Part shown: piece by piece, positions 1 to 8,928 of the stretch
How positions within the stretch are numbered: the stretch's first letter is position 1
Layout: each line of letters opens with the position of its first letter
Source of the DNA: Naegleria gruberi
Lineage: Eukaryota
DNA length: 8,928 nt
Assembly: GCA_000004985.1 (NCBI GenBank)
Contig: GG739051.1
Strand: one strand, 5' to 3'
Translations under genes and position numbers: made by a program
The notes under the pieces: generated by a model
Databases searched by the model: none
What the model saw: the letters and a program-made list of their open reading frames with translations, nothing else
Told to the model about the DNA's origin: nothing

Positions 1-314
1 TAAACAGTCAAATCGTTTGATTGTTGCTTTTTATCAAATTCAAAGTAATTTTTCAGTAAATTATCATTTTGTAATGGTTTTCTCAATCTCGATTGTTTAA
101 TATTCAATTGATGATTTCTCTTTTTTACTTTAACTTTCATTGTAACATTACTAGTTTCATCAATGAATGACATGTTGTTATTACTACTGCTTGAATCACT
201 CCGTCTAATCCCATGATTATTATTATTAGTACAAGTATTAGTATTAGTAGTAGTAGTAGTAGTAGTAGTATTATTATTACTATTATAAGTGTCTCTATTA
301 GTATTATTCTTCAT
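1..314 (-). CDS. Paralog A of a local gene family, 5' part only. The ATG is at 314-312 and the gene continues past position 1. Hand translation: MKNNTNRDTYNSNNNTTTTTTTTTNTNTCTNNNNHGIRRSDSSSSNNNMSFIDETSNVTMKVKVKKRNHQLNIKQSRLRKPLQNDNLLKNYFEFDKKQQSNDLTV...
   Basis: I translated the minus strand by hand. The frame is open from the in-frame stop at 344-342, through the first ATG at 314-312, to the window edge (more than 100 codons). Residues 48-95 align almost residue for residue with the N-terminus of ORFs 3131..3703 and 4799.. (MSFIDETSNVT.K.KVKKRN..L.IKQSRLRKPLQNDNLLKNYFEFDK). The ORF track omits it because it runs off the window. Confidence 0.6.
   Translation of the reverse strand, partial: MKNNTNRDTYNSNNNTTTTTTTTNTNTCTNNNNHGIRRSDSSSSNNNMSFIDETSNVTMKVKVKKRNHQLNIKQSRLRKPLQNDNLLKNYFEFDKKQQSNDLTV
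241..270 (-). repeat. (AGT)n trinucleotide microsatellite, about 9-10 units. It encodes a poly-Thr run in the N-terminal extension that only paralog A has.
   Basis: The run of agt repeats at 241-270 is directly visible. It reads ACT (Thr) in the minus-strand frame. Confidence 0.8.
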
Positions 315-412
315 TGTAATGTTGATTGTGGTAATTATTCTTCAATTTTTTGATTGTTGTATTGTTTTTGTCTTGCTGCTGTGGTTATTGTTGTGGTTGT
401 TGAGAAGTATTG

Positions 413-451
413 AAGTTATATACTCATACCATATTTAGAACATGCCAAATG
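413..451 (-). promoter_or_regulatory. Putative core promoter of paralog A. On the minus strand it reads CATTTGGCATGTTCTA (plus 451-436), then AAATATGG, then TATATA (plus 422-417), about 100-137 bp upstream of the ATG.
   Basis: The same 16-mer, CATTTGGCATGTTCTA, followed by a TA[AT]AT[AT]GG box, lies at the equivalent distance upstream of paralogs B (2996-3018) and C (4691-4712). The leader that follows is CAA/CCA-rich, as in B and C. Confidence 0.45.
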
Positions 452-1762
452 TAAACTCAAGTTTGAAATATATCAAAGTTTTTGTAAATTAAACTAATTC
501 TATTGTAAGCCTTTCATAATAGTTTCATATATTTACCTAATATAAAATGATTTGAATGTGCTTGACTATTGATGCTACTCAATTATTGGCCAACTCTTGA
601 TTATATCTTGACTATTCAATGGACACACAGAGAGTACTCACTGTGTAGGGTTTGCTAGCTAATAAGAGAAATTGATTTGAAATGATTTTTTTCACTCATC
701 ATTTTCATGTGATCACATCCAATGTTGATTTGTTGAAAGTGGTGTTGAGTTTCTGCAGAAAACAAGGAAATTGATGATGTGTTGGTTGCGTGGTTGGTGA
801 AAAACAATGCACTGCTGCAGGTAGGTCTGTCACTTCGTTCTATACTAAATTGAAAGAGTCTACAAACGGATAGGCTTAAAATTGTGAAATAATCTCATTA
901 TTAGTACTATTAATTACGAAAGGACCTTTACAACTCATAAAAATGATGTGATGAACAATGATGGAGTGATTTGTTTGACATTTGTTATTTCTCTTATATA
1001 TCTGTTCGTATCAAATCAATGCATGTGTTGGTTCCTACCACTTGATGATACATGCGATGCATTTATCTTCCATCATCATACGATGTAAATATTATATTAC
1101 ATGTATTACATGTGTTATTATTACCAACACGCACCAGTGAGCTAATAATCATATTAAAAAATTGTCTCTTGTGGGATAGAGGGTGATGACATTTTTTTGT
1201 GAGTTTTAAAGATGGATTTCATATTTGGGAGGTTTCCAAACAGATACCTCACATTGTGCTGATTAATTCTCATCAATAAGTGCAATAATTCATACAACTT
1301 ATATTCCATTCATTGATCATCTATATTGACAGAATCATCATCCAATTGATTCAATATCATCCTATATGGGTTTAATAACTGTGTTATATGATAAAACTCA
1401 ATAGTTTATACCCCACAATTTATGGAGATTAAATCACACACTCATCTATTTGAATAAGATCTCATCCAAACAAATTAACATTCCAAGAATTGATCAGAGA
1501 TATATTACTGTCTCTTAATGTTTAAAAGGCAATCATTTCACAAATTATAGAGTTATCCATAGATCTTCTTAAGCATCAATGAATCAAAGAAGGAAACTGT
1601 CTTTTTTATATTAATAGGGCGCAGTGGTTTCCTTAACATTTAAAATAAATGGCTTTGTTCTCTGAATAAATTCATATTAAGGATGAAAATAAAAAACAAA
1701 TACCAATATATTATTATTATTAACCATTAACAATACTCAACACTACTACTACTATTACAAGA

Positions 1763-2124
1763 ATGAAAAGTTGTGAAAATTATTCCTTAACATTGAATCA
1801 CCAACANNNNNNNNNNNNNNNNNNNNNNNNNNNNNNNNNNNNNNNNNNNNNNNNNNNNNNNCAACAGAGCCTATTACTACTTGCTCATCTTTAGCTAATA
1901 ATCATAATGATGATGATGCTTATATTAGAGTGAGAAGACCTTCGGAGCACAAAAGTACATGTACCAGTGAAGATAATATTATTATTCAACCATTATCATC
2001 ATCACCATTATTCAATAATATTACTCCTAGGAAGACCACTACTATAACAACGACCAATATTGCTACAACAACAAGTGAACGTAAGCATAGAACTGCAATA
2101 ACCTTCCAAGAATTATTAAATTAA
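1763..2124 (+). CDS. Hypothetical small protein whose ORF spans the 55-N gap. The 5' part (ATG 1763, MKSCENYSLTLNHQ..) and the 3' part (..TEPITTCSSLANNHNDDDAYIRVRRPSEHKSTCTSEDNIIIQPLSSSPLFNNITPRKTTTITTTNIATTTSERKHRTAITFQELLN*) are joined only by assumption. Whether the frame is continuous across the gap is unknown.
   Basis: After the gap only one frame is open, for 87 codons up to the TAA at 2122-2124. That is unusual at this AT content. The ORF-track 'M' at 1930 is a GTG, not an ATG. Before the gap a frame is open from 1724 with an ATG at 1763. AATAAA at 2186-2191 lies about 65 bp past the stop. Confidence 0.3.
1807..1861. other. Assembly gap (55 N).
   Basis: Run of n. Confidence 0.99.
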
Positions 2125-2185
2125 TTTTTTTGCTCAAAGATGACATCAAAGCCTGTATCCACGTTATTTCGAATTGAAAAAGTTA

Positions 2186-2191
2186 AATAAA
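2186..2191 (+). terminator. Putative poly(A) signal AATAAA for the 1763-2124 ORF. It sits in the loop of an 8-bp inverted repeat (2149-2156 and 2192-2199).
   Basis: The hexamer is about 65 bp downstream of the stop. aagcctgt and acaggctt are exact reverse complements. Confidence 0.3.
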
Positions 2192-2737
2192 ACAGGCTTG
2201 TAAAATGTTATTTAATGAATGGAAATAGAAACGCATGCTTGAATAAGTGATATACTCGAAACCTGCCATATTCAACTTTGATACTTAGAATATCAATTTG
2301 GAGTTTTAGACACCGATAGGTTGGCATCTTCAAAAAAATTGAGTCAACCCGCTAAGCGCTGGACAAAACCTTCAGCACACAACCTCGGTTCCATCATCTG
2401 ATGCTTTTCATGTTGTATTTCTTCAACAACATCCATAATATAGTTTAACAAGATACATGTGTCTCGGAAGAACAATTACAAATGTTAATAATATTAGCCT
2501 TAGAGTGTTATTAGATGCATGTGCTACATCATAATGTAGGTGATGGTAAAAACAAGATGTGTGTGCCTGATCTGACTGTAAACAGCAACAACTTGTAATC
2601 CACAATATATTGTGTTGGTTACATCTGACCTTTCAATTAGTCTAACTGGCCACAACTTACTGGATTCCTCTTCTAGCCAAATGAAGATGATGTGTTGTGA
2701 TAATGGAAACAGATTGATTTGGATACTTGATAATTGT

Positions 2738-3542
2738 TGGACAATTGGAATATTAGAGAACTATTATTGAGAACACAATACATATTTAATACTAACCAGT
2801 TTTAGACTTTCTAATTTAATATTGAGATTTCATCTCTCATGGCAGAGTACAATAGTGCTTGCTATGTGGTCTATTCATTGTTACAACTGATTGTCCAACA
2901 AAAAAACAACAACAAGTAGCATTGAATTATCAATCTCAAATAATATAGGTATGTTGATAGAAAACAACAGCACTGTATCTATTGGAATGAATGTTCATTT
3001 GGCATGTTCTATATATGGAATGCTGTCTTATAAAAGAAGGTCAAATAACAGCAACAACAAGTTAGTACAACAAAAATACCACAACAAGAGTGATTAATTT
3101 TATTAAAAAATAATCAAGAACACATATCCAATGAAGAAGAATCAGAATTCCAACAACATGTCATTCATTGATGAAACTAGCAATGTTACAAAGAAAGCAA
3201 AAGTGAAAAAGAGAAATAAGGAATTGAAAATTAAACAATCGAGATTGAGAAAACCATTACAAAATGATAATTTATTGAAAAATTATTTTGAATTTGATAA
3301 GCAACAATTAACAGAAAGTGATTTGACTATTTACAAAATTATTAATCCACCAAATGCATCAACCACCATCATTGATAATTCTAATACTTCTAGTAGTATT
3401 GAAAATAATACAACATGTCCAATAGAAACATCAACAGTTGATACAATTATTACATGTCAGAAGGTTAAATGCAAAACTATGAATAATACTAATAATTTGA
3501 ATCAACATGCATCTAGTAATATTGAATATTCATCATCATCAC
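2738..3542 (+). repeat. Tandem segmental duplication, unit 1 (promoter plus 5' CDS of paralog B). It matches 4433-5207. Weaker similarity extends upstream to about 2500, matching about 4255.
   Basis: By eye the two units align with a period of 1668 bp (ATG 3131 and ATG 4799). The first 233 nt of the CDS are identical apart from one synonymous change (aat/aac). The proximal promoter is about 90% identical with indels, including one of 27 bp. Farther upstream only short motifs are shared, for example aacttgtaatcca at 2590-2602 and 4324-4336. Confidence 0.85.
2976..3018 (+). promoter_or_regulatory. Putative promoter of paralog B. It has an inverted CCAAT (attgg, 2981-2985), the conserved CATTTGGCATGTTCTA (2996-3011) and a TATA-like ctatatatgg (3009-3018), about 115-150 bp upstream of the ATG.
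   Basis: The block is conserved with paralog C (4671-4712). The 16-mer is also conserved upstream of paralog A. A CAA-rich leader follows. Confidence 0.5.
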
Positions 3543-3703
3543 TAACAATCAACTCAATCAACAGCAGTAGTGGTGGAAGCAGTACTAGTGGAAGCAGCAG
3601 TAGTGCATGCAGTGATAATACTTCAAAAGAAGAAGAAGAAGAAGCAGTAGAATTTGATGATTGTGAAAGCTTTCTCAGTTCAATTTCGTTTCTTTTTAAT
3701 TAA
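3131..3703 (+). CDS. Paralog B, complete, 190 aa. It has a basic N-terminal module that looks like a bipartite NLS (KKAKVKKRNKELKIKQSRLRK), an NYFEFD motif, a Ser/Thr/Asn-rich middle and an acidic C-terminus (SKEEEEEAVEFDDCESFLSSISFLFN). Function unknown.
   Basis: The ORF runs from ATG to TAA. The N-terminal half is duplicated at 4799 with in-frame indels only (a 3-nt difference across the variable block plus a 6-nt tgtcag indel), which argues for coding constraint. The module is conserved in minus-strand paralog A. AATAAA lies 76 bp past the stop. Confidence 0.7.
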   Translation: MKKNQNSNNMSFIDETSNVTKKAKVKKRNKELKIKQSRLRKPLQNDNLLKNYFEFDKQQLTESDLTIYKIINPPNASTTIIDNSNTSSSIENNTTCPIETSTVDTIITCQKVKCKTMNNTNNLNQHASSNIEYSSSSLTINSINSSSGGSSTSGSSSSACSDNTSKEEEEEAVEFDDCESFLSSISFLFN

Positions 3704-3778
3704 GTTCTCTCTTTGAAACAGTTTTACGAGTAGTATTTACGCATGTCTATTTATGATCTATTCAAATTAAGGTCAATC

Positions 3779-3784
3779 AATAAA
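3779..3784 (+). terminator. Putative poly(A) signal AATAAA for paralog B.
   Basis: caataaacatg lies about 76 bp downstream of the TAA at 3701-3703. Confidence 0.35.
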
Positions 3785-4670
3785 CATGTAAAATTACTAA
3801 AAACATTAAATTAGCTCACACAATCATCGTTTCCAAAAGTTGTATTACTTTAAGATTTTTTAAATAATTGTACAATTATTGAATGCATGCTACAACAAGT
3901 ACTATAAGTTCTTCATCGAACAGGTGAGCACTATTCATTTCTTGCGTGCATGTGTTGCAAGAGAGAGATACGAATAAACATTAATCTAGTTGTCCAACTT
4001 ACTTTTTATGAATATCGCATGAACGAGTTCTACCTTCCTTATTCAATCCTGAGAACACATTTGGGGTCTAGAAAGCAATTACAACTTTAAAAAAAATTGA
4101 ATCATGATGACAAAGCTAGAAAACCACACATGCTTTTACTATCTCAACACTTGGTAGATGTGTGTTGTATTTTTTGAAAATGTTTCAACAACAATTTATT
4201 TCGCGAAAGGTTTTGTGAGCCTTAAAGTGTTGTTGATGGCTTTTTAGAATCACATGTATTTATTGCATGCATGTGGTGAAGCATCATGATGATGATCTAA
4301 TTGTTTGTTTGATGCATGTATCAAACTTGTAATCCATTGCATGCATCTAATAACACATCCATTCAACCTTCACATGCCGAATCATCATGGTTAAACATGC
4401 ATGTCTATCATTTGTATTCGAATGGCTAATAGTCGGGCAATGGGAAATTAGAGAACTATTATTGAGAATAATTCCACTTATTTAATACTAACCACTTATA
4501 GACTTTCTAATTTAATCATTTGATTACATAACAACTCTCGCCAAGGCTTCATGACTTTGGTTTACAACAAAAAAATCATCAACAAGCATCTACATTCAAT
4601 CCAGTTATTACATTGACCTATCAATCTCAAATATCAATAATAGGTATGTTGATTGAAAACAACAACACTG

Positions 4671-4712
4671 TATCTATTGGAATGAATGTACATTTGGCAT
4701 GTTCTATAATTG
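4671..4712 (+). promoter_or_regulatory. Putative promoter of paralog C. It has an inverted CCAAT (attgg, 4676-4680), CATTTGGCATGTTCTA (4691-4706) and a TATA-like taattgg.
   Basis: Aligned copy of 2976-3018. It sits 27 bp closer to the ATG because of an indel in the leader. Confidence 0.5.
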
Positions 4713-4798
4713 GTAATCAAACTTATTAAAGAAAGTCAAATAACAGCAACAACAAGAGTGATTAATTTTATTAAAAAATAATCAAGAACACATATCCA

Positions 4799-5207
4799 AT
4801 GAAGAAGAACCAGAATTCCAACAACATGTCATTCATTGATGAAACTAGCAATGTTACAAAGAAAGCAAAAGTGAAAAAGAGAAATAAGGAATTGAAAATT
4901 AAACAATCGAGATTGAGAAAACCATTACAAAATGATAATTTATTGAAAAATTATTTTGAATTTGATAAGCAACAATTAACAGAAAGTGATTTGACTATTT
5001 ACAAAATTATTAATCCACCAAATGCATCTACTGACAATACTTTTTCAGAAAATATTACAACTTGCTCGAATGCATCATCATTATCATCAGGTACTAGTGA
5101 AAATGTAAAGGATACAATTATTACAAAGGTTAAATGCAAAACTATGAATAATACTAATAATTTGAATCAACATGCATCTAGTAATATTGAATATTCATCA
5201 TCATCAC
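4799..5207 (+). CDS. Paralog C, 5' part only. The 3' end is lost in the 1784-N gap. Residues 1-78 are identical to B, the next roughly 26 aa are unrelated (DNTFSENITTCSNASSLSSGTSENVK), and identity then resumes (DTIITKVKCKTMNNTNNLNQHASSNIEYSSSS).
   Basis: The ORF starts at ATG 4799 and is open up to the N run. The alignment to B at nucleotide and protein level was done by eye. Everything in the ORF-track entry beyond 5207 is X from the gap. Confidence 0.65.
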
Positions 5208-6991
5208 NNNNNNNNNNNNNNNNNNNNNNNNNNNNNNNNNNNNNNNNNNNNNNNNNNNNNNNNNNNNNNNNNNNNNNNNNNNNNNNNNNNNNNNNNNNNN
5301 NNNNNNNNNNNNNNNNNNNNNNNNNNNNNNNNNNNNNNNNNNNNNNNNNNNNNNNNNNNNNNNNNNNNNNNNNNNNNNNNNNNNNNNNNNNNNNNNNNNN
5401 NNNNNNNNNNNNNNNNNNNNNNNNNNNNNNNNNNNNNNNNNNNNNNNNNNNNNNNNNNNNNNNNNNNNNNNNNNNNNNNNNNNNNNNNNNNNNNNNNNNN
5501 NNNNNNNNNNNNNNNNNNNNNNNNNNNNNNNNNNNNNNNNNNNNNNNNNNNNNNNNNNNNNNNNNNNNNNNNNNNNNNNNNNNNNNNNNNNNNNNNNNNN
5601 NNNNNNNNNNNNNNNNNNNNNNNNNNNNNNNNNNNNNNNNNNNNNNNNNNNNNNNNNNNNNNNNNNNNNNNNNNNNNNNNNNNNNNNNNNNNNNNNNNNN
5701 NNNNNNNNNNNNNNNNNNNNNNNNNNNNNNNNNNNNNNNNNNNNNNNNNNNNNNNNNNNNNNNNNNNNNNNNNNNNNNNNNNNNNNNNNNNNNNNNNNNN
5801 NNNNNNNNNNNNNNNNNNNNNNNNNNNNNNNNNNNNNNNNNNNNNNNNNNNNNNNNNNNNNNNNNNNNNNNNNNNNNNNNNNNNNNNNNNNNNNNNNNNN
5901 NNNNNNNNNNNNNNNNNNNNNNNNNNNNNNNNNNNNNNNNNNNNNNNNNNNNNNNNNNNNNNNNNNNNNNNNNNNNNNNNNNNNNNNNNNNNNNNNNNNN
6001 NNNNNNNNNNNNNNNNNNNNNNNNNNNNNNNNNNNNNNNNNNNNNNNNNNNNNNNNNNNNNNNNNNNNNNNNNNNNNNNNNNNNNNNNNNNNNNNNNNNN
6101 NNNNNNNNNNNNNNNNNNNNNNNNNNNNNNNNNNNNNNNNNNNNNNNNNNNNNNNNNNNNNNNNNNNNNNNNNNNNNNNNNNNNNNNNNNNNNNNNNNNN
6201 NNNNNNNNNNNNNNNNNNNNNNNNNNNNNNNNNNNNNNNNNNNNNNNNNNNNNNNNNNNNNNNNNNNNNNNNNNNNNNNNNNNNNNNNNNNNNNNNNNNN
6301 NNNNNNNNNNNNNNNNNNNNNNNNNNNNNNNNNNNNNNNNNNNNNNNNNNNNNNNNNNNNNNNNNNNNNNNNNNNNNNNNNNNNNNNNNNNNNNNNNNNN
6401 NNNNNNNNNNNNNNNNNNNNNNNNNNNNNNNNNNNNNNNNNNNNNNNNNNNNNNNNNNNNNNNNNNNNNNNNNNNNNNNNNNNNNNNNNNNNNNNNNNNN
6501 NNNNNNNNNNNNNNNNNNNNNNNNNNNNNNNNNNNNNNNNNNNNNNNNNNNNNNNNNNNNNNNNNNNNNNNNNNNNNNNNNNNNNNNNNNNNNNNNNNNN
6601 NNNNNNNNNNNNNNNNNNNNNNNNNNNNNNNNNNNNNNNNNNNNNNNNNNNNNNNNNNNNNNNNNNNNNNNNNNNNNNNNNNNNNNNNNNNNNNNNNNNN
6701 NNNNNNNNNNNNNNNNNNNNNNNNNNNNNNNNNNNNNNNNNNNNNNNNNNNNNNNNNNNNNNNNNNNNNNNNNNNNNNNNNNNNNNNNNNNNNNNNNNNN
6801 NNNNNNNNNNNNNNNNNNNNNNNNNNNNNNNNNNNNNNNNNNNNNNNNNNNNNNNNNNNNNNNNNNNNNNNNNNNNNNNNNNNNNNNNNNNNNNNNNNNN
6901 NNNNNNNNNNNNNNNNNNNNNNNNNNNNNNNNNNNNNNNNNNNNNNNNNNNNNNNNNNNNNNNNNNNNNNNNNNNNNNNNNNNNNNNNNNN
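5208..6991. other. Assembly gap (1784 N). It starts inside the Ser-rich low-complexity coding part of paralog C.
   Basis: Run of n. Its length (1784 bp) is close to the tandem period (1668 bp). Confidence 0.99.
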
Positions 6992-7161
6992 ATATTCTTG
7001 AATATTCTCCAAATAATTCAAATTGTATTGATCGTGAGATTTTACAACTTTCAAAACACATACAATATGTTAATAATAATAGATACATTCAAATAATAGA
7101 TATCAAGTTGATGAGTATTTTGCAAAATATTGAATTTTGAATTATTTTAATAATTTACAAT

Positions 7162-7746
7162 TTATTCCATATGAAAAGTCCATATTGGAAAATTAAACTC
7201 CATTTGAGTTTGTGCTGGATTGGAATAGGCTGAATTCTTTCTCTTTTGACATTTTCGTCTTCTTTTCAAATGTTTTGAATTTGAATTATCAATACAAGAA
7301 GTAGTGGATGAAATTGAGATTTTCTTTTCTGTATTTGGACTTGTATAATATTTGAATGAAGAAGAGGAAATCTTTCTCTTCTTTGAGATTGATGAGATAT
7401 TGGGCATGGTAGTATTTTCATTCTTGGTGGTGGTGAATATTGTTGGAAGTTGAAACGTTTCTAGTGCCTCATTGTGATCAGAATTGTTTAATACTACTAA
7501 TGAGGAACTAATTAATTGTTGATCTTTCACTAGTTCATCTGAATGAAAAACAAAGCTGTCATCTTGTTGGTGATGAACTTGTTTGATAGTCTGTAATATT
7601 TTCCAACTCTGCATAAAATCAACAATATCAAGATTTAAACTTGGCAATTCATTGTTACTGGTATTGATAGAAGAGGAGGAGGATGACATTGATGATGGAG
7701 AGACTATTCCACAATGAATATTAAATGGAGAGGGTAACATCAACAT
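7162..7746 (-). CDS. Hypothetical Ser/Asn-rich protein of about 194 aa, counted from the first ATG at 7746-7744. It has a C-terminal basic cluster (KHLKRRRKCQKRK). Function unknown.
   Basis: The frame is open on the minus strand from 7854 to the TAA at 7162. The ORF-track start at 7824 is a GTG and there is no ATG upstream in frame. The first ATG gives MLMLPSPF... AATAAA overlaps the stop (gaaTAAatt on the minus strand). Low-complexity composition makes a chance ORF more plausible than usual. Confidence 0.4.
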   Translation of the reverse strand: MLMLPSPFNIHCGIVSPSSMSSSSSSINTSNNELPSLNLDIVDFMQSWKILQTIKQVHHQQDDSFVFHSDELVKDQQLISSSLVVLNNSDHNEALETFQLPTIFTTTKNENTTMPNISSISKKRKISSSSFKYYTSPNTEKKISISSTTSCIDNSNSKHLKRRRKCQKRKNSAYSNPAQTQMEFNFPIWTFHME

Positions 7747-8167
7747 TTCAGCAACTGAACAATTGACTTGTTTTTTTTTTGAAATACTGTATCTGAATAG
7801 AGAGTTGGTGATGAGTTCTACCACTTTAATATTTACTATTCCAGTTTCAACTTGTCAAATCCGCAGAATAGTTATTTTATTGGTCAGTGCGATTTGTTAC
7901 AGAAATTCATGAAATCAAAATGGACTTGGATACTGAACAAGGCATTATTATCTCCTCAACAAAAGAGAGCAATCATGATTGTATATCAAGTTCTTCTCAA
8001 ATTGCCAAGAGGTATCTTTACGAAAATCATGAAATAAATGATTACTTGGCAGGTCTATTTAGGCTTGAGATACCATAGTGTTATGGAAAGAGATTTCACA
8101 ACTTTCAACTGTTGGCCAACAAACGTTATTAAGAAATTCTATTTTGTACATTTCGGTTAAACATTTA

Positions 8168-8713
8168 TTACCAAAATATTGGTTTTTTCAACATTTGATA
8201 ATATGGAGATTGTTCATCAGTTAATAGTTCAACAATTCCTTCATAATCTAAGGAGAGCATTAATTTTGAATTTAGTAATGATGATGATTCTGATCTTGTT
8301 TCAGATTGCTGATTAGTCAAAATTGAATGTGGGAAACACATTGATTGGAAATTATATCTACAACCATTATTACTGTCCGTACTTTCCTTTGGATGAACAA
8401 TGGTATTCAAAACACTACCTTCGCTATTAGAAACCTTCATTCCATTCGTTTCATTTTCTGTATCAGTTTTCTCTGAAACATGAAAATGAAACAAAGATTC
8501 AATAATTTTACTTGACATCATTTCACTATTTGACCTCTGAATTGTATTAAAATCCATTACTGTATATTCTTCATTCCTACTAATTTCATCTCTACATTTA
8601 GTTTTGTTTAGTTTACTATTTGGCACCATAACAAAGTAAAATTGTTTGAATTTATCGTGGTCGATTTGTTTTCTCAATTTTGAAGGGATTTTCCTGCTCA
8701 ACCCACTTGGCAT
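8168..8713 (-). CDS. Hypothetical 181-aa protein with a basic N-terminus (MPSGLSRKIPSKLRKQIDHDKFKQFYF...). It may be a distant relative of the A/B/C module.
   Basis: ORF from ATG (8713-8711) to TAA. Upstream in frame there are 19 open codons without an ATG and then a stop. TAATAAATG at the stop supplies AATAAA. The possible link to the family rests only on the weak pattern S[KR]LRK.[IL]..D.[FL]...YF, shared with KQSRLRKPLQNDNLLKNYF. Confidence 0.4.
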   Translation of the reverse strand: MPSGLSRKIPSKLRKQIDHDKFKQFYFVMVPNSKLNKTKCRDEISRNEEYTVMDFNTIQRSNSEMMSSKIIESLFHFHVSEKTDTENETNGMKVSNSEGSVLNTIVHPKESTDSNNGCRYNFQSMCFPHSILTNQQSETRSESSSLLNSKLMLSLDYEGIVELLTDEQSPYYQMLKKPIFW

Positions 8714-8928
8714 TTGTTCGTTTTTTTTCTGAGCCTTGTGTTGGATTTTCTGTGGGATACTTTATTCGATACTATGACTTACTATCTTGAGCACAAAGCA
8801 TGGCTTACAATCTCTCTCAAATGTTCCTTTTGTGAACGAGTCAGTACAAACATTAACACGAATCAATGCAAACAATACAATTAAAGAAACTCAACCAATC
8901 AACAGGTGAACGATTGGAGCATAAAAAA

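What the first reader, a model, noticed from the sequence alone, without database searches (positions are those of the whole stretch)
413..4712. Shared cis-regulatory module CATTTGGCATGTTCTA + TA[AT]AT[AT]GG upstream of all three paralogs
The same 16-mer sits 108-137 bp upstream of the ATG of A (minus strand, 451-436), B (2996-3011) and C (4691-4706). In each case a TATA-like box follows immediately: AAATATGG...TATATA in A, TATATATGG in B, TAATTGG in C. In B and C an inverted CCAAT (attgg) lies 15 bp upstream, and a CAA/CAG-rich leader lies downstream (aataacagcaacaacaag...). A and B/C are otherwise strongly diverged in the flanking DNA, so keeping the 16-mer in A argues that it is functional. 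The 16-mer contains a TTGGCA element (the NFI-type half-site) fused to GCATG. CAA-rich leaders are known translational enhancers, for example the TMV omega leader.
Basis: partly seen in the sequence, partly recalled or inferred. Interest (0 to 1): 0.5.

Follow-up and report, generated by a model that had tools for sequence, protein, structure and literature searches.

The report
Conserved promoter block of Naegleria paralogs
A 16-base sequence just upstream of a TATA box is the best-preserved part of the promoters of three neighbouring copies of a Naegleria-specific gene of unknown function; it is most likely an ordinary transcription-factor site private to this small gene group, not a general or NFI-type element.

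Summary
CATTTGGCATGTTCTA occurs exactly three times in the window. Each copy is in the same orientation as its gene and starts 137, 135 or 108 bp upstream of the ATG of paralogs A, B and C.

The window is a complete 8.9-kb scaffold of Naegleria gruberi. The genes belong to an uncharacterised, mostly disordered protein family found in Naegleria and Willaertia.

The three promoters share the motif by descent: weak homology runs about 400-630 bp upstream. Even so, the 16-mer is the only long invariant run. Flanks of A against B/C are 50-55% identical. Depending on the null model, p ranges from about 1e-4 to 0.03.

Each 16-mer is followed by CTA-W4-TGG, and a better TATA box lies 29-33 nt from the motif start.

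The motif is absent upstream of six more distant family members and of the other genes in the window.

The NFI reading is unsupported. The A-rich leader is generic to N. gruberi-type genes.

Best reading: a promoter-proximal activator site specific to this subfamily. No transcription start data, genome-wide count or binding factor was available. This is an ordinary finding of modest interest.

The parts
436..451 (-). 16-mer CATTTGGCATGTTCTA, copy A, starts at -137 from the ATG
2996..3011 (+). 16-mer, copy B, starts at -135 from the ATG
4691..4706 (+). 16-mer, copy C, starts at -108 from the ATG
429..438 (-). CTAAATATGG (CTA-W4-TGG), overlapping the last 3 nt of the 16-mer, copy A
3009..3018 (+). 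CTATATATGG (CTA-W4-TGG), copy B; also matches TATAWAWR perfectly
4704..4713 (+). CTATAATTGG (CTA-W4-TGG), copy C; contains an inverted CCAAT
415..422 (-). Candidate TATA box TATATAAC, 29 nt from the motif start, copy A
   Evidence: sequence
3029..3036 (+). Candidate TATA box TATAAAAG, 33 nt from the motif start, copy B
   Evidence: sequence
4724..4731 (+). Candidate TATA box TATTAAAG, 33 nt from the motif start, copy C
   Evidence: sequence; alignment
2981..2985 (+). Inverted CCAAT (ATTGG), 15 bp upstream of the motif, copy B; no counterpart in A
4676..4680 (+). Inverted CCAAT (ATTGG), copy C
315..414 (-). A-rich, G-poor presumed 5' leader of A
3037..3130 (+). A-rich presumed 5' leader of B; C lacks about 27 nt of it
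4732..4798 (+). A-rich presumed 5' leader of C
3..314 (-). Paralog A (EFC35725, partial; runs off the scaffold end)
3131..3703 (+). Paralog B (NAEGRDRAFT_54780, 190 aa)
4799..5207 (+). Paralog C (runs into the assembly gap; unannotated; matches NAEGRDRAFT_53198 on another scaffold)
830..960 (-). Second, weakly conserved upstream block, copy A (about -520 to -650)
2715..2835 (+). Second upstream block, copy B (about -415 to -295)
4400..4530 (+). Second upstream block, copy C

Best explanation
The 16-mer, together with the adjoining CTA-W4-TGG, is a double-stranded DNA binding site for a sequence-specific transcription factor in the proximal promoter of a small Naegleria gruberi gene subfamily (paralogs A, B and C).

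Its 3' end lies 13-17 bp upstream of a TATA box. Assuming initiation about 30 nt downstream of that box, the motif is centred near -55 from the start site. From there it would help recruit or stabilise the pre-initiation complex and give the three paralogs a common expression pattern.

The element was inherited with the promoter when the genes duplicated. It has been kept by purifying selection while the surrounding promoter decayed.

Shown: exact conservation, orientation, spacing to the TATA box, excess conservation over the flanks, and the absence of coding or structural constraint.
Inferred: the transcription start site, the existence and identity of the factor, and co-regulation.
For: Three exact copies, all oriented with their genes.

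In MAFFT alignments of the promoters, the 16 invariant columns are the longest run. Column-shuffle tests give p of about 8e-5 to 3e-4 for three-way identity, 0.002-0.003 for A=B, and 4e-5 to 6e-4 for A=C (an 18-nt run). Identity outside the motif is only 0.50-0.55 for A against B or C. Simple independent-site models give P = 0.002-0.03.

The younger B-C comparison also peaks in the window that contains the motif (2984-3013, 97%), against 30-80% elsewhere in the promoter.

CTAWWWWTGG follows all three copies and occurs nowhere else in the window. A TATA box lies at a fixed 29-33 nt from the motif start (alignment).

No reading frame is open through the motif in all three copies. There is no stable hairpin (z-scores from -1.0 to +0.7), no Rfam family match and no tRNA.
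Against: The promoters are homologous by descent, so the motif's presence alone proves nothing.

The statistical excess is moderate and depends on the null model. If neutral identity were the 75% implied by dS of about 0.30 in the coding sequence, a 16-nt run would be unremarkable (P = 0.38).

The family shows mosaic near-identity tracts that look like gene conversion (3081-3363 is 99-100% identical between B and C). A short converted patch therefore cannot be excluded.

The motif, or even its TTGGCATG core, is absent from about 22 kb of other Naegleria-type DNA and from the promoters of six more distant family members.

No transcription start, expression or binding data exist, and no literature on Naegleria promoter motifs was found.
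Confidence: 0.5

Rival explanations
1. The block is a neutral relic or a short gene-conversion patch. It is simply the part of the duplicated promoter that has not yet mutated, or was recently copied between paralogs. It has no regulatory role of its own.
For: The promoters are homologous over 190 bp or more, plus a second upstream block. The paralogs show mosaic 99-100% tracts next to diverged DNA. dS in the coding sequence is only about 0.30, and at the identity that implies, a 16-nt run has P = 0.38. The motif is not seen upstream of any other gene examined.
Against: The flanks actually observed are 50-55% identical, which gives P = 0.002-0.03, or about 1e-4 by column shuffling. The island has graded edges (30 of 38 positions identical, read from the alignment) rather than the sharp boundaries of a fresh conversion tract. 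It is also separated from the conserved coding tract by about 260 nt of unalignable DNA in A. Orientation and spacing to the TATA box are kept.
Confidence: 0.27
2. The block is part of the core promoter or of the transcript. Either the TATA-like sequence directly after the 16-mer is the real TATA box, so the 16-mer acts as an element immediately upstream of that box. Or transcription starts upstream and the block lies in the 5' leader, where it acts at the RNA level.
For: B has a perfect TATAWAWR (TATATATG) that overlaps the end of the motif. No start-site data exist.
Against: A (TAAATATG) and C (TATAATTG) fit the TATA consensus poorly at that position. The downstream box is better conserved. 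No conserved RNA structure is predicted and there is no Rfam hit. No conserved upstream ORF runs through the motif.
Confidence: 0.15
3. One reading: an NFI-type half-site (TTGGCA) fused to GCATG and bound by an NFI-like factor, combined with an omega-like CAA translational-enhancer leader.
For: The strings TTGGCA and GCATG are present in the 16-mer, and the leaders are rich in A and C.
Against: There is no TTGGC-N5-GCCAA palindrome at any copy. NFI/CTF is regarded as metazoan-specific (general knowledge, not tested here). A-rich, G-poor leaders are generic among the N. gruberi-type genes sampled. GCATG-containing hexamers are over-represented throughout the intergenic DNA of the window, so GCATG inside the motif is not distinctive.
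Confidence: 0.03

Closest known systems
Promoter-proximal activator sites upstream of a TATA box (for example CCAAT boxes bound by NF-Y)
   Same: The position is similar (predicted at about -40 to -70 from the start site). The orientation relative to the gene is fixed. The element is conserved inside an otherwise decaying promoter. B and C also carry a true inverted CCAAT 15 bp upstream.
   Different: On the reverse strand the 16-mer reads CCAAAT, not the CCAAT pentamer that NF-Y requires. A has no CCAAT nearby. No factor is known.
NFI/CTF binding site (TTGGC-N5-GCCAA; half-site TTGGCA)
   Same: It contains the half-site string TTGGCA.
   Different: The second half-site is missing. The organism is a heterolobosean, and NFI is considered metazoan-specific (general knowledge).
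MADS-box sites (SRF CArG box CC(W)6GG; MEF2 site CTA(W)4TAG)
   Same: All three copies are followed by a 10-mer with conserved edges and a variable A/T core (CTA-W4-TGG). That is one MEF2-type half plus one SRF-type half.
   Different: It matches neither consensus fully. With three sequences in a 70% A+T genome, W-to-W changes are expected anyway. Whether Naegleria has a MADS factor was not established here.
Gene-family promoter motifs such as the nematode effector 'DOG box' (ATGCCA; recalled from memory)
   Same: A short motif shared by the promoters of a lineage-specific gene group. The reverse complement of the 16-mer happens to contain ATGCCA.
   Different: The DOG box is defined by enrichment across many non-duplicated genes. 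Here the motif is seen only in three promoters related by duplication, and not in six other family members.

Membership tests
NFI/CTF binding site | Dyad TTGGC-N5-GCCAA | tested here: not met
   With up to 2 mismatches, no match overlaps any of the three motif copies.
NFI/CTF binding site | Half-site TTGGCA/TGGCA present | tested here: met
   TTGGCA lies inside the 16-mer. It is a 6-mer string match only.
NFI/CTF binding site | The organism encodes an NFI/CTF DNA-binding domain | not testable with these tools
   No search limited to the N. gruberi proteome was available. General knowledge says the family is restricted to metazoans.
TATA box | Match to TATAWAWR | tested here: met
   B TATAAAAG has 0 mismatches, A TATATAAC has 1 and C TATTAAAG has 1. 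All lie 29-33 nt from the motif start.
TATA box | Located about 25-35 nt upstream of the transcription start site | not testable with these tools
   No 5' end data. No transcript contigs are on record for these proteins.
CCAAT box (NF-Y) | Intact CCAAT pentamer in all copies | tested here: not met
   ATTGG lies 15 bp upstream in B and C only. The 16-mer itself reads CCAAAT on the reverse strand.
MADS-box site (CArG / MEF2) | CC(W)6GG or CTA(W)4TAG | tested here: not met
   All three copies are the hybrid CTA-W4-TGG. This is a resemblance only.
Omega-like CAA translational-enhancer leader | A CAA-rich leader that is distinctive for these genes | tested here: not met
   The leaders of A, B and C are 51-56% A and 7-10% G. 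Other N. gruberi-type genes sampled are similar (41-57% A in five of six), so the composition is generic. Enhancer activity cannot be tested here.
Regulon-type or family-wide promoter motif | Recurs upstream of genes that are not recent duplicates | tested here: not met
   The best match is only 9-11 of 16 positions upstream of six distant family members (the window gene at 8168-8713, L005, L006, L007, L008, L009) and of other genes. TTGGCATG is absent from all Naegleria-type loci fetched. The whole genome could not be scanned.
Phylogenetic footprint (constrained non-coding block) | Conservation significantly above the surrounding homologous non-coding DNA | tested here: met
   Column-shuffle p is about 1e-4 to 3e-3. 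Independent-site models give 0.002-0.03. The result is not significant if neutral identity is taken from the coding-sequence dS.

The most novel reading that the evidence does not exclude
The 26-nt module (the 16-mer plus CTA-W4-TGG) is the recognition site of a heterolobosean-specific transcription factor. It would be the first defined cis-regulatory element in Naegleria, controlling a fast-evolving family of disordered nuclear proteins confined to Naegleria and Willaertia. It might even be bound by the family's own basic N-terminal region (autoregulation). The GCATG core could reflect a wider GCATG-based regulatory vocabulary in N. gruberi intergenic DNA.
Probability: 0.1. Interest if true: 0.45.

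Novelty: new member of a known kind. Interest (0 to 1): 0.22.

Why it matters
Literature searches here found no described promoter element or mapped transcription-factor site in Naegleria. A validated site would be a useful handle for building expression tools in an organism that is hard to transfect. It would also help in studying how tandem paralogs keep a common regulation. As it stands, the element is private to three duplicated promoters of genes of unknown function, so its wider significance is limited.

Tried and rejected
- Getting more N. gruberi DNA. Exact-protein look-ups for B and its twins, and for NAEGRDRAFT_45892, found nothing on record. The 244-kb scaffold with the second copy of this locus could therefore not be read, and no genome-wide count was possible.
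- Scanning JGI metagenomes for the 23-mer gave 0 hits. IMG/VR gave 4 hits to the 16-mer, in contigs unrelated to Naegleria; I treated these as chance hits without examining them.
- Protein-based locus searches in metagenome and viral contigs found no relatives.
- Coding constraint is rejected. No frame is open through the motif in all three copies.
- An RNA gene or structured element is rejected. There is no Rfam hit, no tRNA and no better-than-shuffled fold.
- The protein family's function stays unknown. There are no Pfam domains and no PDB relatives, and the AlphaFold model is mostly disordered (pLDDT 61, pTM 0.26). I therefore ran no fold search.
- A near match in L007 (15 of 17 positions, 138 nt upstream of an unrelated gene) has BLAST E = 0.46 and was not counted as evidence.
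- Literature searches for Naegleria promoter motifs, TGCATG, MADS factors, transcription-factor repertoires and the gene identifiers found nothing usable.
Full report
**What the window is.** Protein B (3131-3703) is 100% identical to a 'predicted protein' of Naegleria gruberi whose longest contig is 8,928 bp, so the window is a whole small scaffold of the N. gruberi assembly. B is NAEGRDRAFT_54780. A is the partial EFC35725. The ORF at 8168-8713 (-) is NAEGRDRAFT_76618. Near-identical twins lie together on a 244-kb scaffold: NAEGRDRAFT_53199 (97% to B), 53198 (which matches the readable part of C) and 74017. The window is therefore probably an allelic or recently duplicated copy of that region. 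The DNA is 30% G+C. It contains two assembly gaps, which truncate C.

**The observation.** CATTTGGCATGTTCTA is present exactly at 436-451 (-), 2996-3011 (+) and 4691-4706 (+). There is no further match with up to three mismatches, and none of 200 shuffles reached three matches. Oriented with each gene, the motif starts at -137 (A), -135 (B) and -108 (C) from the ATG.

**How the three promoters are related.** B and C are tandem duplicates with a period of about 1.69 kb. Their promoters align from about -415 to the ATG. There are two conserved blocks (2741-2829 and 2920-3050), followed by a 283-nt tract of 99-100% identity that begins 50 nt upstream of the ATG (3081-3363). After that comes a strongly diverged mid-gene segment and then another 100% tract. 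This mosaic suggests gene conversion among the copies.

A is older. It shares 156-163 nt of coding sequence at 91% (dN 0.05, dS 0.30 over 48 codons). It also shares a weak 188-nt alignment of the proximal promoter (65%, E = 1e-10) and a second upstream block (A 830-960 minus, B 2715-2835, C 4400-4530; about 67% between A and C, E = 8e-7). So the ancestral duplicated unit included at least 400 bp of 5' flank. The motif is in A by descent, not by independent gain.

**Is the 16-mer more conserved than its surroundings?** Yes, moderately. In MAFFT alignments of the proximal promoters, the 16 invariant columns are the longest run. Outside them, A is only 50-55% identical to B or C, while B and C are 73-90% identical.

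- Shuffling alignment columns gives p of about 8e-5 to 3e-4 for the three-way run.
- The same test gives 0.002-0.003 for A=B.
- It gives 4e-5 to 6e-4 for A=C, where the run is 18 nt.
- Independent-site simulations give P = 0.002-0.03 for backgrounds of 50-64% identity.
- They give P = 0.38 if the neutral identity is taken as the 75% implied by the coding-sequence dS.

That dS is itself suspect because the coding region appears to be homogenised. In the independent, younger B-C comparison, conservation also peaks in the window containing the motif (2984-3013, 97%). The island has graded edges: 30 of 38 positions are identical between A and B, read from the alignment.

**Anatomy of the module.** Directly after the 16-mer, and overlapping its last three bases, all three copies have CTA-W4-TGG (A CTAAATATGG, B CTATATATGG, C CTATAATTGG). 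This pattern occurs nowhere else in the window. It matches the TATA consensus TATAWAWR perfectly only in B. A better-conserved TATA box lies 29-33 nt from the motif start: A TATATAAC at 415-422 (-), B TATAAAAG at 3029-3036, and C TATTAAAG at 4724-4731.

Such boxes are rare in the other 14 Naegleria-type promoters I could sample: two imperfect matches and no perfect one. If initiation occurs about 30 nt downstream of that box, the 16-mer is centred near -55. The leaders would then be about 70 nt (A, B) or about 40 nt (C). This start-site placement is inference, because no start-site data were available.

**What it is not.**
- No reading frame is open through the motif in all three copies.
- The region folds no better than shuffled sequence.
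- It matches no Rfam family.
- It holds no tRNA.
- The NFI dyad TTGGC-N5-GCCAA is absent at the motif, so only the six-base half-site string supports the NFI idea. NFI is, from general knowledge, a metazoan family.
- The 'CAA-rich leader' is not distinctive. Leaders that are 41-57% A and poor in G also precede five of the six other N. gruberi-type genes sampled.
- GCATG-containing hexamers are over-represented throughout the intergenic DNA of the window, so GCATG within the motif is not a distinguishing mark.

**The gene family, and whether the motif goes with it.** A full HMMER scan with a profile of the paralogs found 22 representatives. They come from N. gruberi, N. lovaniensis, Willaertia magna and environmental assemblies. 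The window's own 181-aa gene also belongs. Members share an N-terminal signature, roughly S-F-[IV]-D-E-T ... R-L-R-K-x-L-Q-N-x-x-L-L-x-N-Y-F-E. Many also share an acidic C-terminal D-D-C-x-S-F-L-S-S motif. They have no Pfam domain and no PDB relative. The AlphaFold model is largely disordered, with pLDDT 61 and pTM 0.26.

I could fetch upstream DNA for five more distant members (L005, L006, L007, L008, L009), and I also examined the window's 181-aa gene. None has the motif: the best ungapped match is 9-11 of 16 positions. The core TTGGCATG is absent from all of those loci. The element is therefore specific to the A/B/C subfamily and is not a family-wide or general promoter word. No relatives of the subfamily itself exist in the protein collections outside the N. 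gruberi assembly. That ruled out true phylogenetic footprinting.

**Best explanation and rivals.** I consider a subfamily-specific promoter-proximal transcription-factor site the most likely reading (confidence about 0.5). The main rival is a neutral relic or short conversion patch (about 0.27). That rival is favoured by the descent of the promoters, the mosaic conversion-like tracts and the lack of any occurrence elsewhere. A core-promoter or leader role is possible if the start site lies elsewhere (about 0.15). The specific NFI plus omega-leader version is very unlikely (about 0.03).

**Limits.** I could not read the rest of the N. gruberi genome, because look-ups returned nothing on record. 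The collections that can be scanned do not hold it. Literature searches found no described Naegleria promoter element. The only relevant published fact I found is that N. gruberi uses the AAUAAA poly(A) signal with upstream UGUA (PMC11529991).

**Verdict.** This is a real, modestly significant conserved promoter block in three duplicated promoters. It is a new instance of a known kind of feature and of low to moderate interest.

Noticed in passing
window 2505-2521 (+) and 4340-4356 (-); also 3506-3522 (-) and 5171-5187 (-): A second repeated element, GTGTTATTAGATGCATG, is exact in opposite orientations about 620 bp upstream of B and about 450 bp upstream of C (0 of 200 shuffles gave as many matches). 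Copies with 3 mismatches lie inside the coding sequences of B and C. It could be an orientation-independent upstream element or a decayed fragment of coding sequence in the intergenic DNA.
   Followed up: partly
window intergenic DNA, densest at 3880-4400; also 1020-1055, 2233, 2517: GCATGC, GCATGT and TGCATG are 4-10 times over-represented in intergenic DNA (for example GCATGT 14 observed against 2.3 expected, GCATGC 8 against 0.8). A weaker excess is seen in the N. gruberi-like metagenome contigs L005 and L007, but not in the N. lovaniensis locus L008. I have no explanation for this.
   Followed up: partly
window 3081-3363 against 4749-5031, and 3461-3542 against 5126-5207: B and C have tracts of 99-100% identity, beginning 50 nt upstream of the ATG. 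These are embedded between an 80-90% identical promoter and a strongly diverged, indel-rich middle of the gene. The mosaic suggests gene conversion between tandem paralogs.
   Followed up: partly
window 8168-8713 (-); proteins P0005-P0024: The paralogs belong to an uncharacterised family found in Naegleria, Willaertia and environmental assemblies. It has a conserved N-terminal S-F-[IV]-D-E-T ... R-L-R-K-x-L-Q-N-x-x-L-L-x-N-Y-F-E signature and often an acidic D-D-C-x-S-F-L-S-S C-terminus. There is no Pfam or PDB relative and the proteins are predicted to be mostly disordered. The window's 181-aa gene is a distant member.
   Followed up: partly
L007 8-44: AATGATGATGTTCAAATGGCATGTGTGTATTAAATGG resembles the B island (15 of 17 positions over ATGTTCAnnTGGCATGT). 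It lies about 138 nt upstream of an unrelated 437-aa gene in an N. gruberi-like metagenome contig, preceded by a CCAAT. BLAST E = 0.46, so it is not significant on its own.
   Followed up: partly
L005 about 178 nt upstream of the P0013 gene (gene at 2365-3033): GGGAACATGCCTGG shares the 9-mer GAACATGCC with the reverse complement of the 16-mer. It lies upstream of a distant family member, in the opposite orientation relative to the gene. This could be chance.
   Followed up: no
window 1763-2124 (+) and 7162-7824 (-): Two further ORFs (one interrupted by a 54-N gap) have no annotation among the scaffold's three NCBI proteins and no Pfam match. Their status as genes is unknown.
   Followed up: no
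window 1-8928 compared with the 243,952-bp N. gruberi scaffold: Three window genes have twins on one large scaffold (97% identity for B; the other two pairs lie in the same 90% cluster or match closely). The small scaffold is probably an unmerged second haplotype or a recent segmental duplicate.
   Followed up: partly
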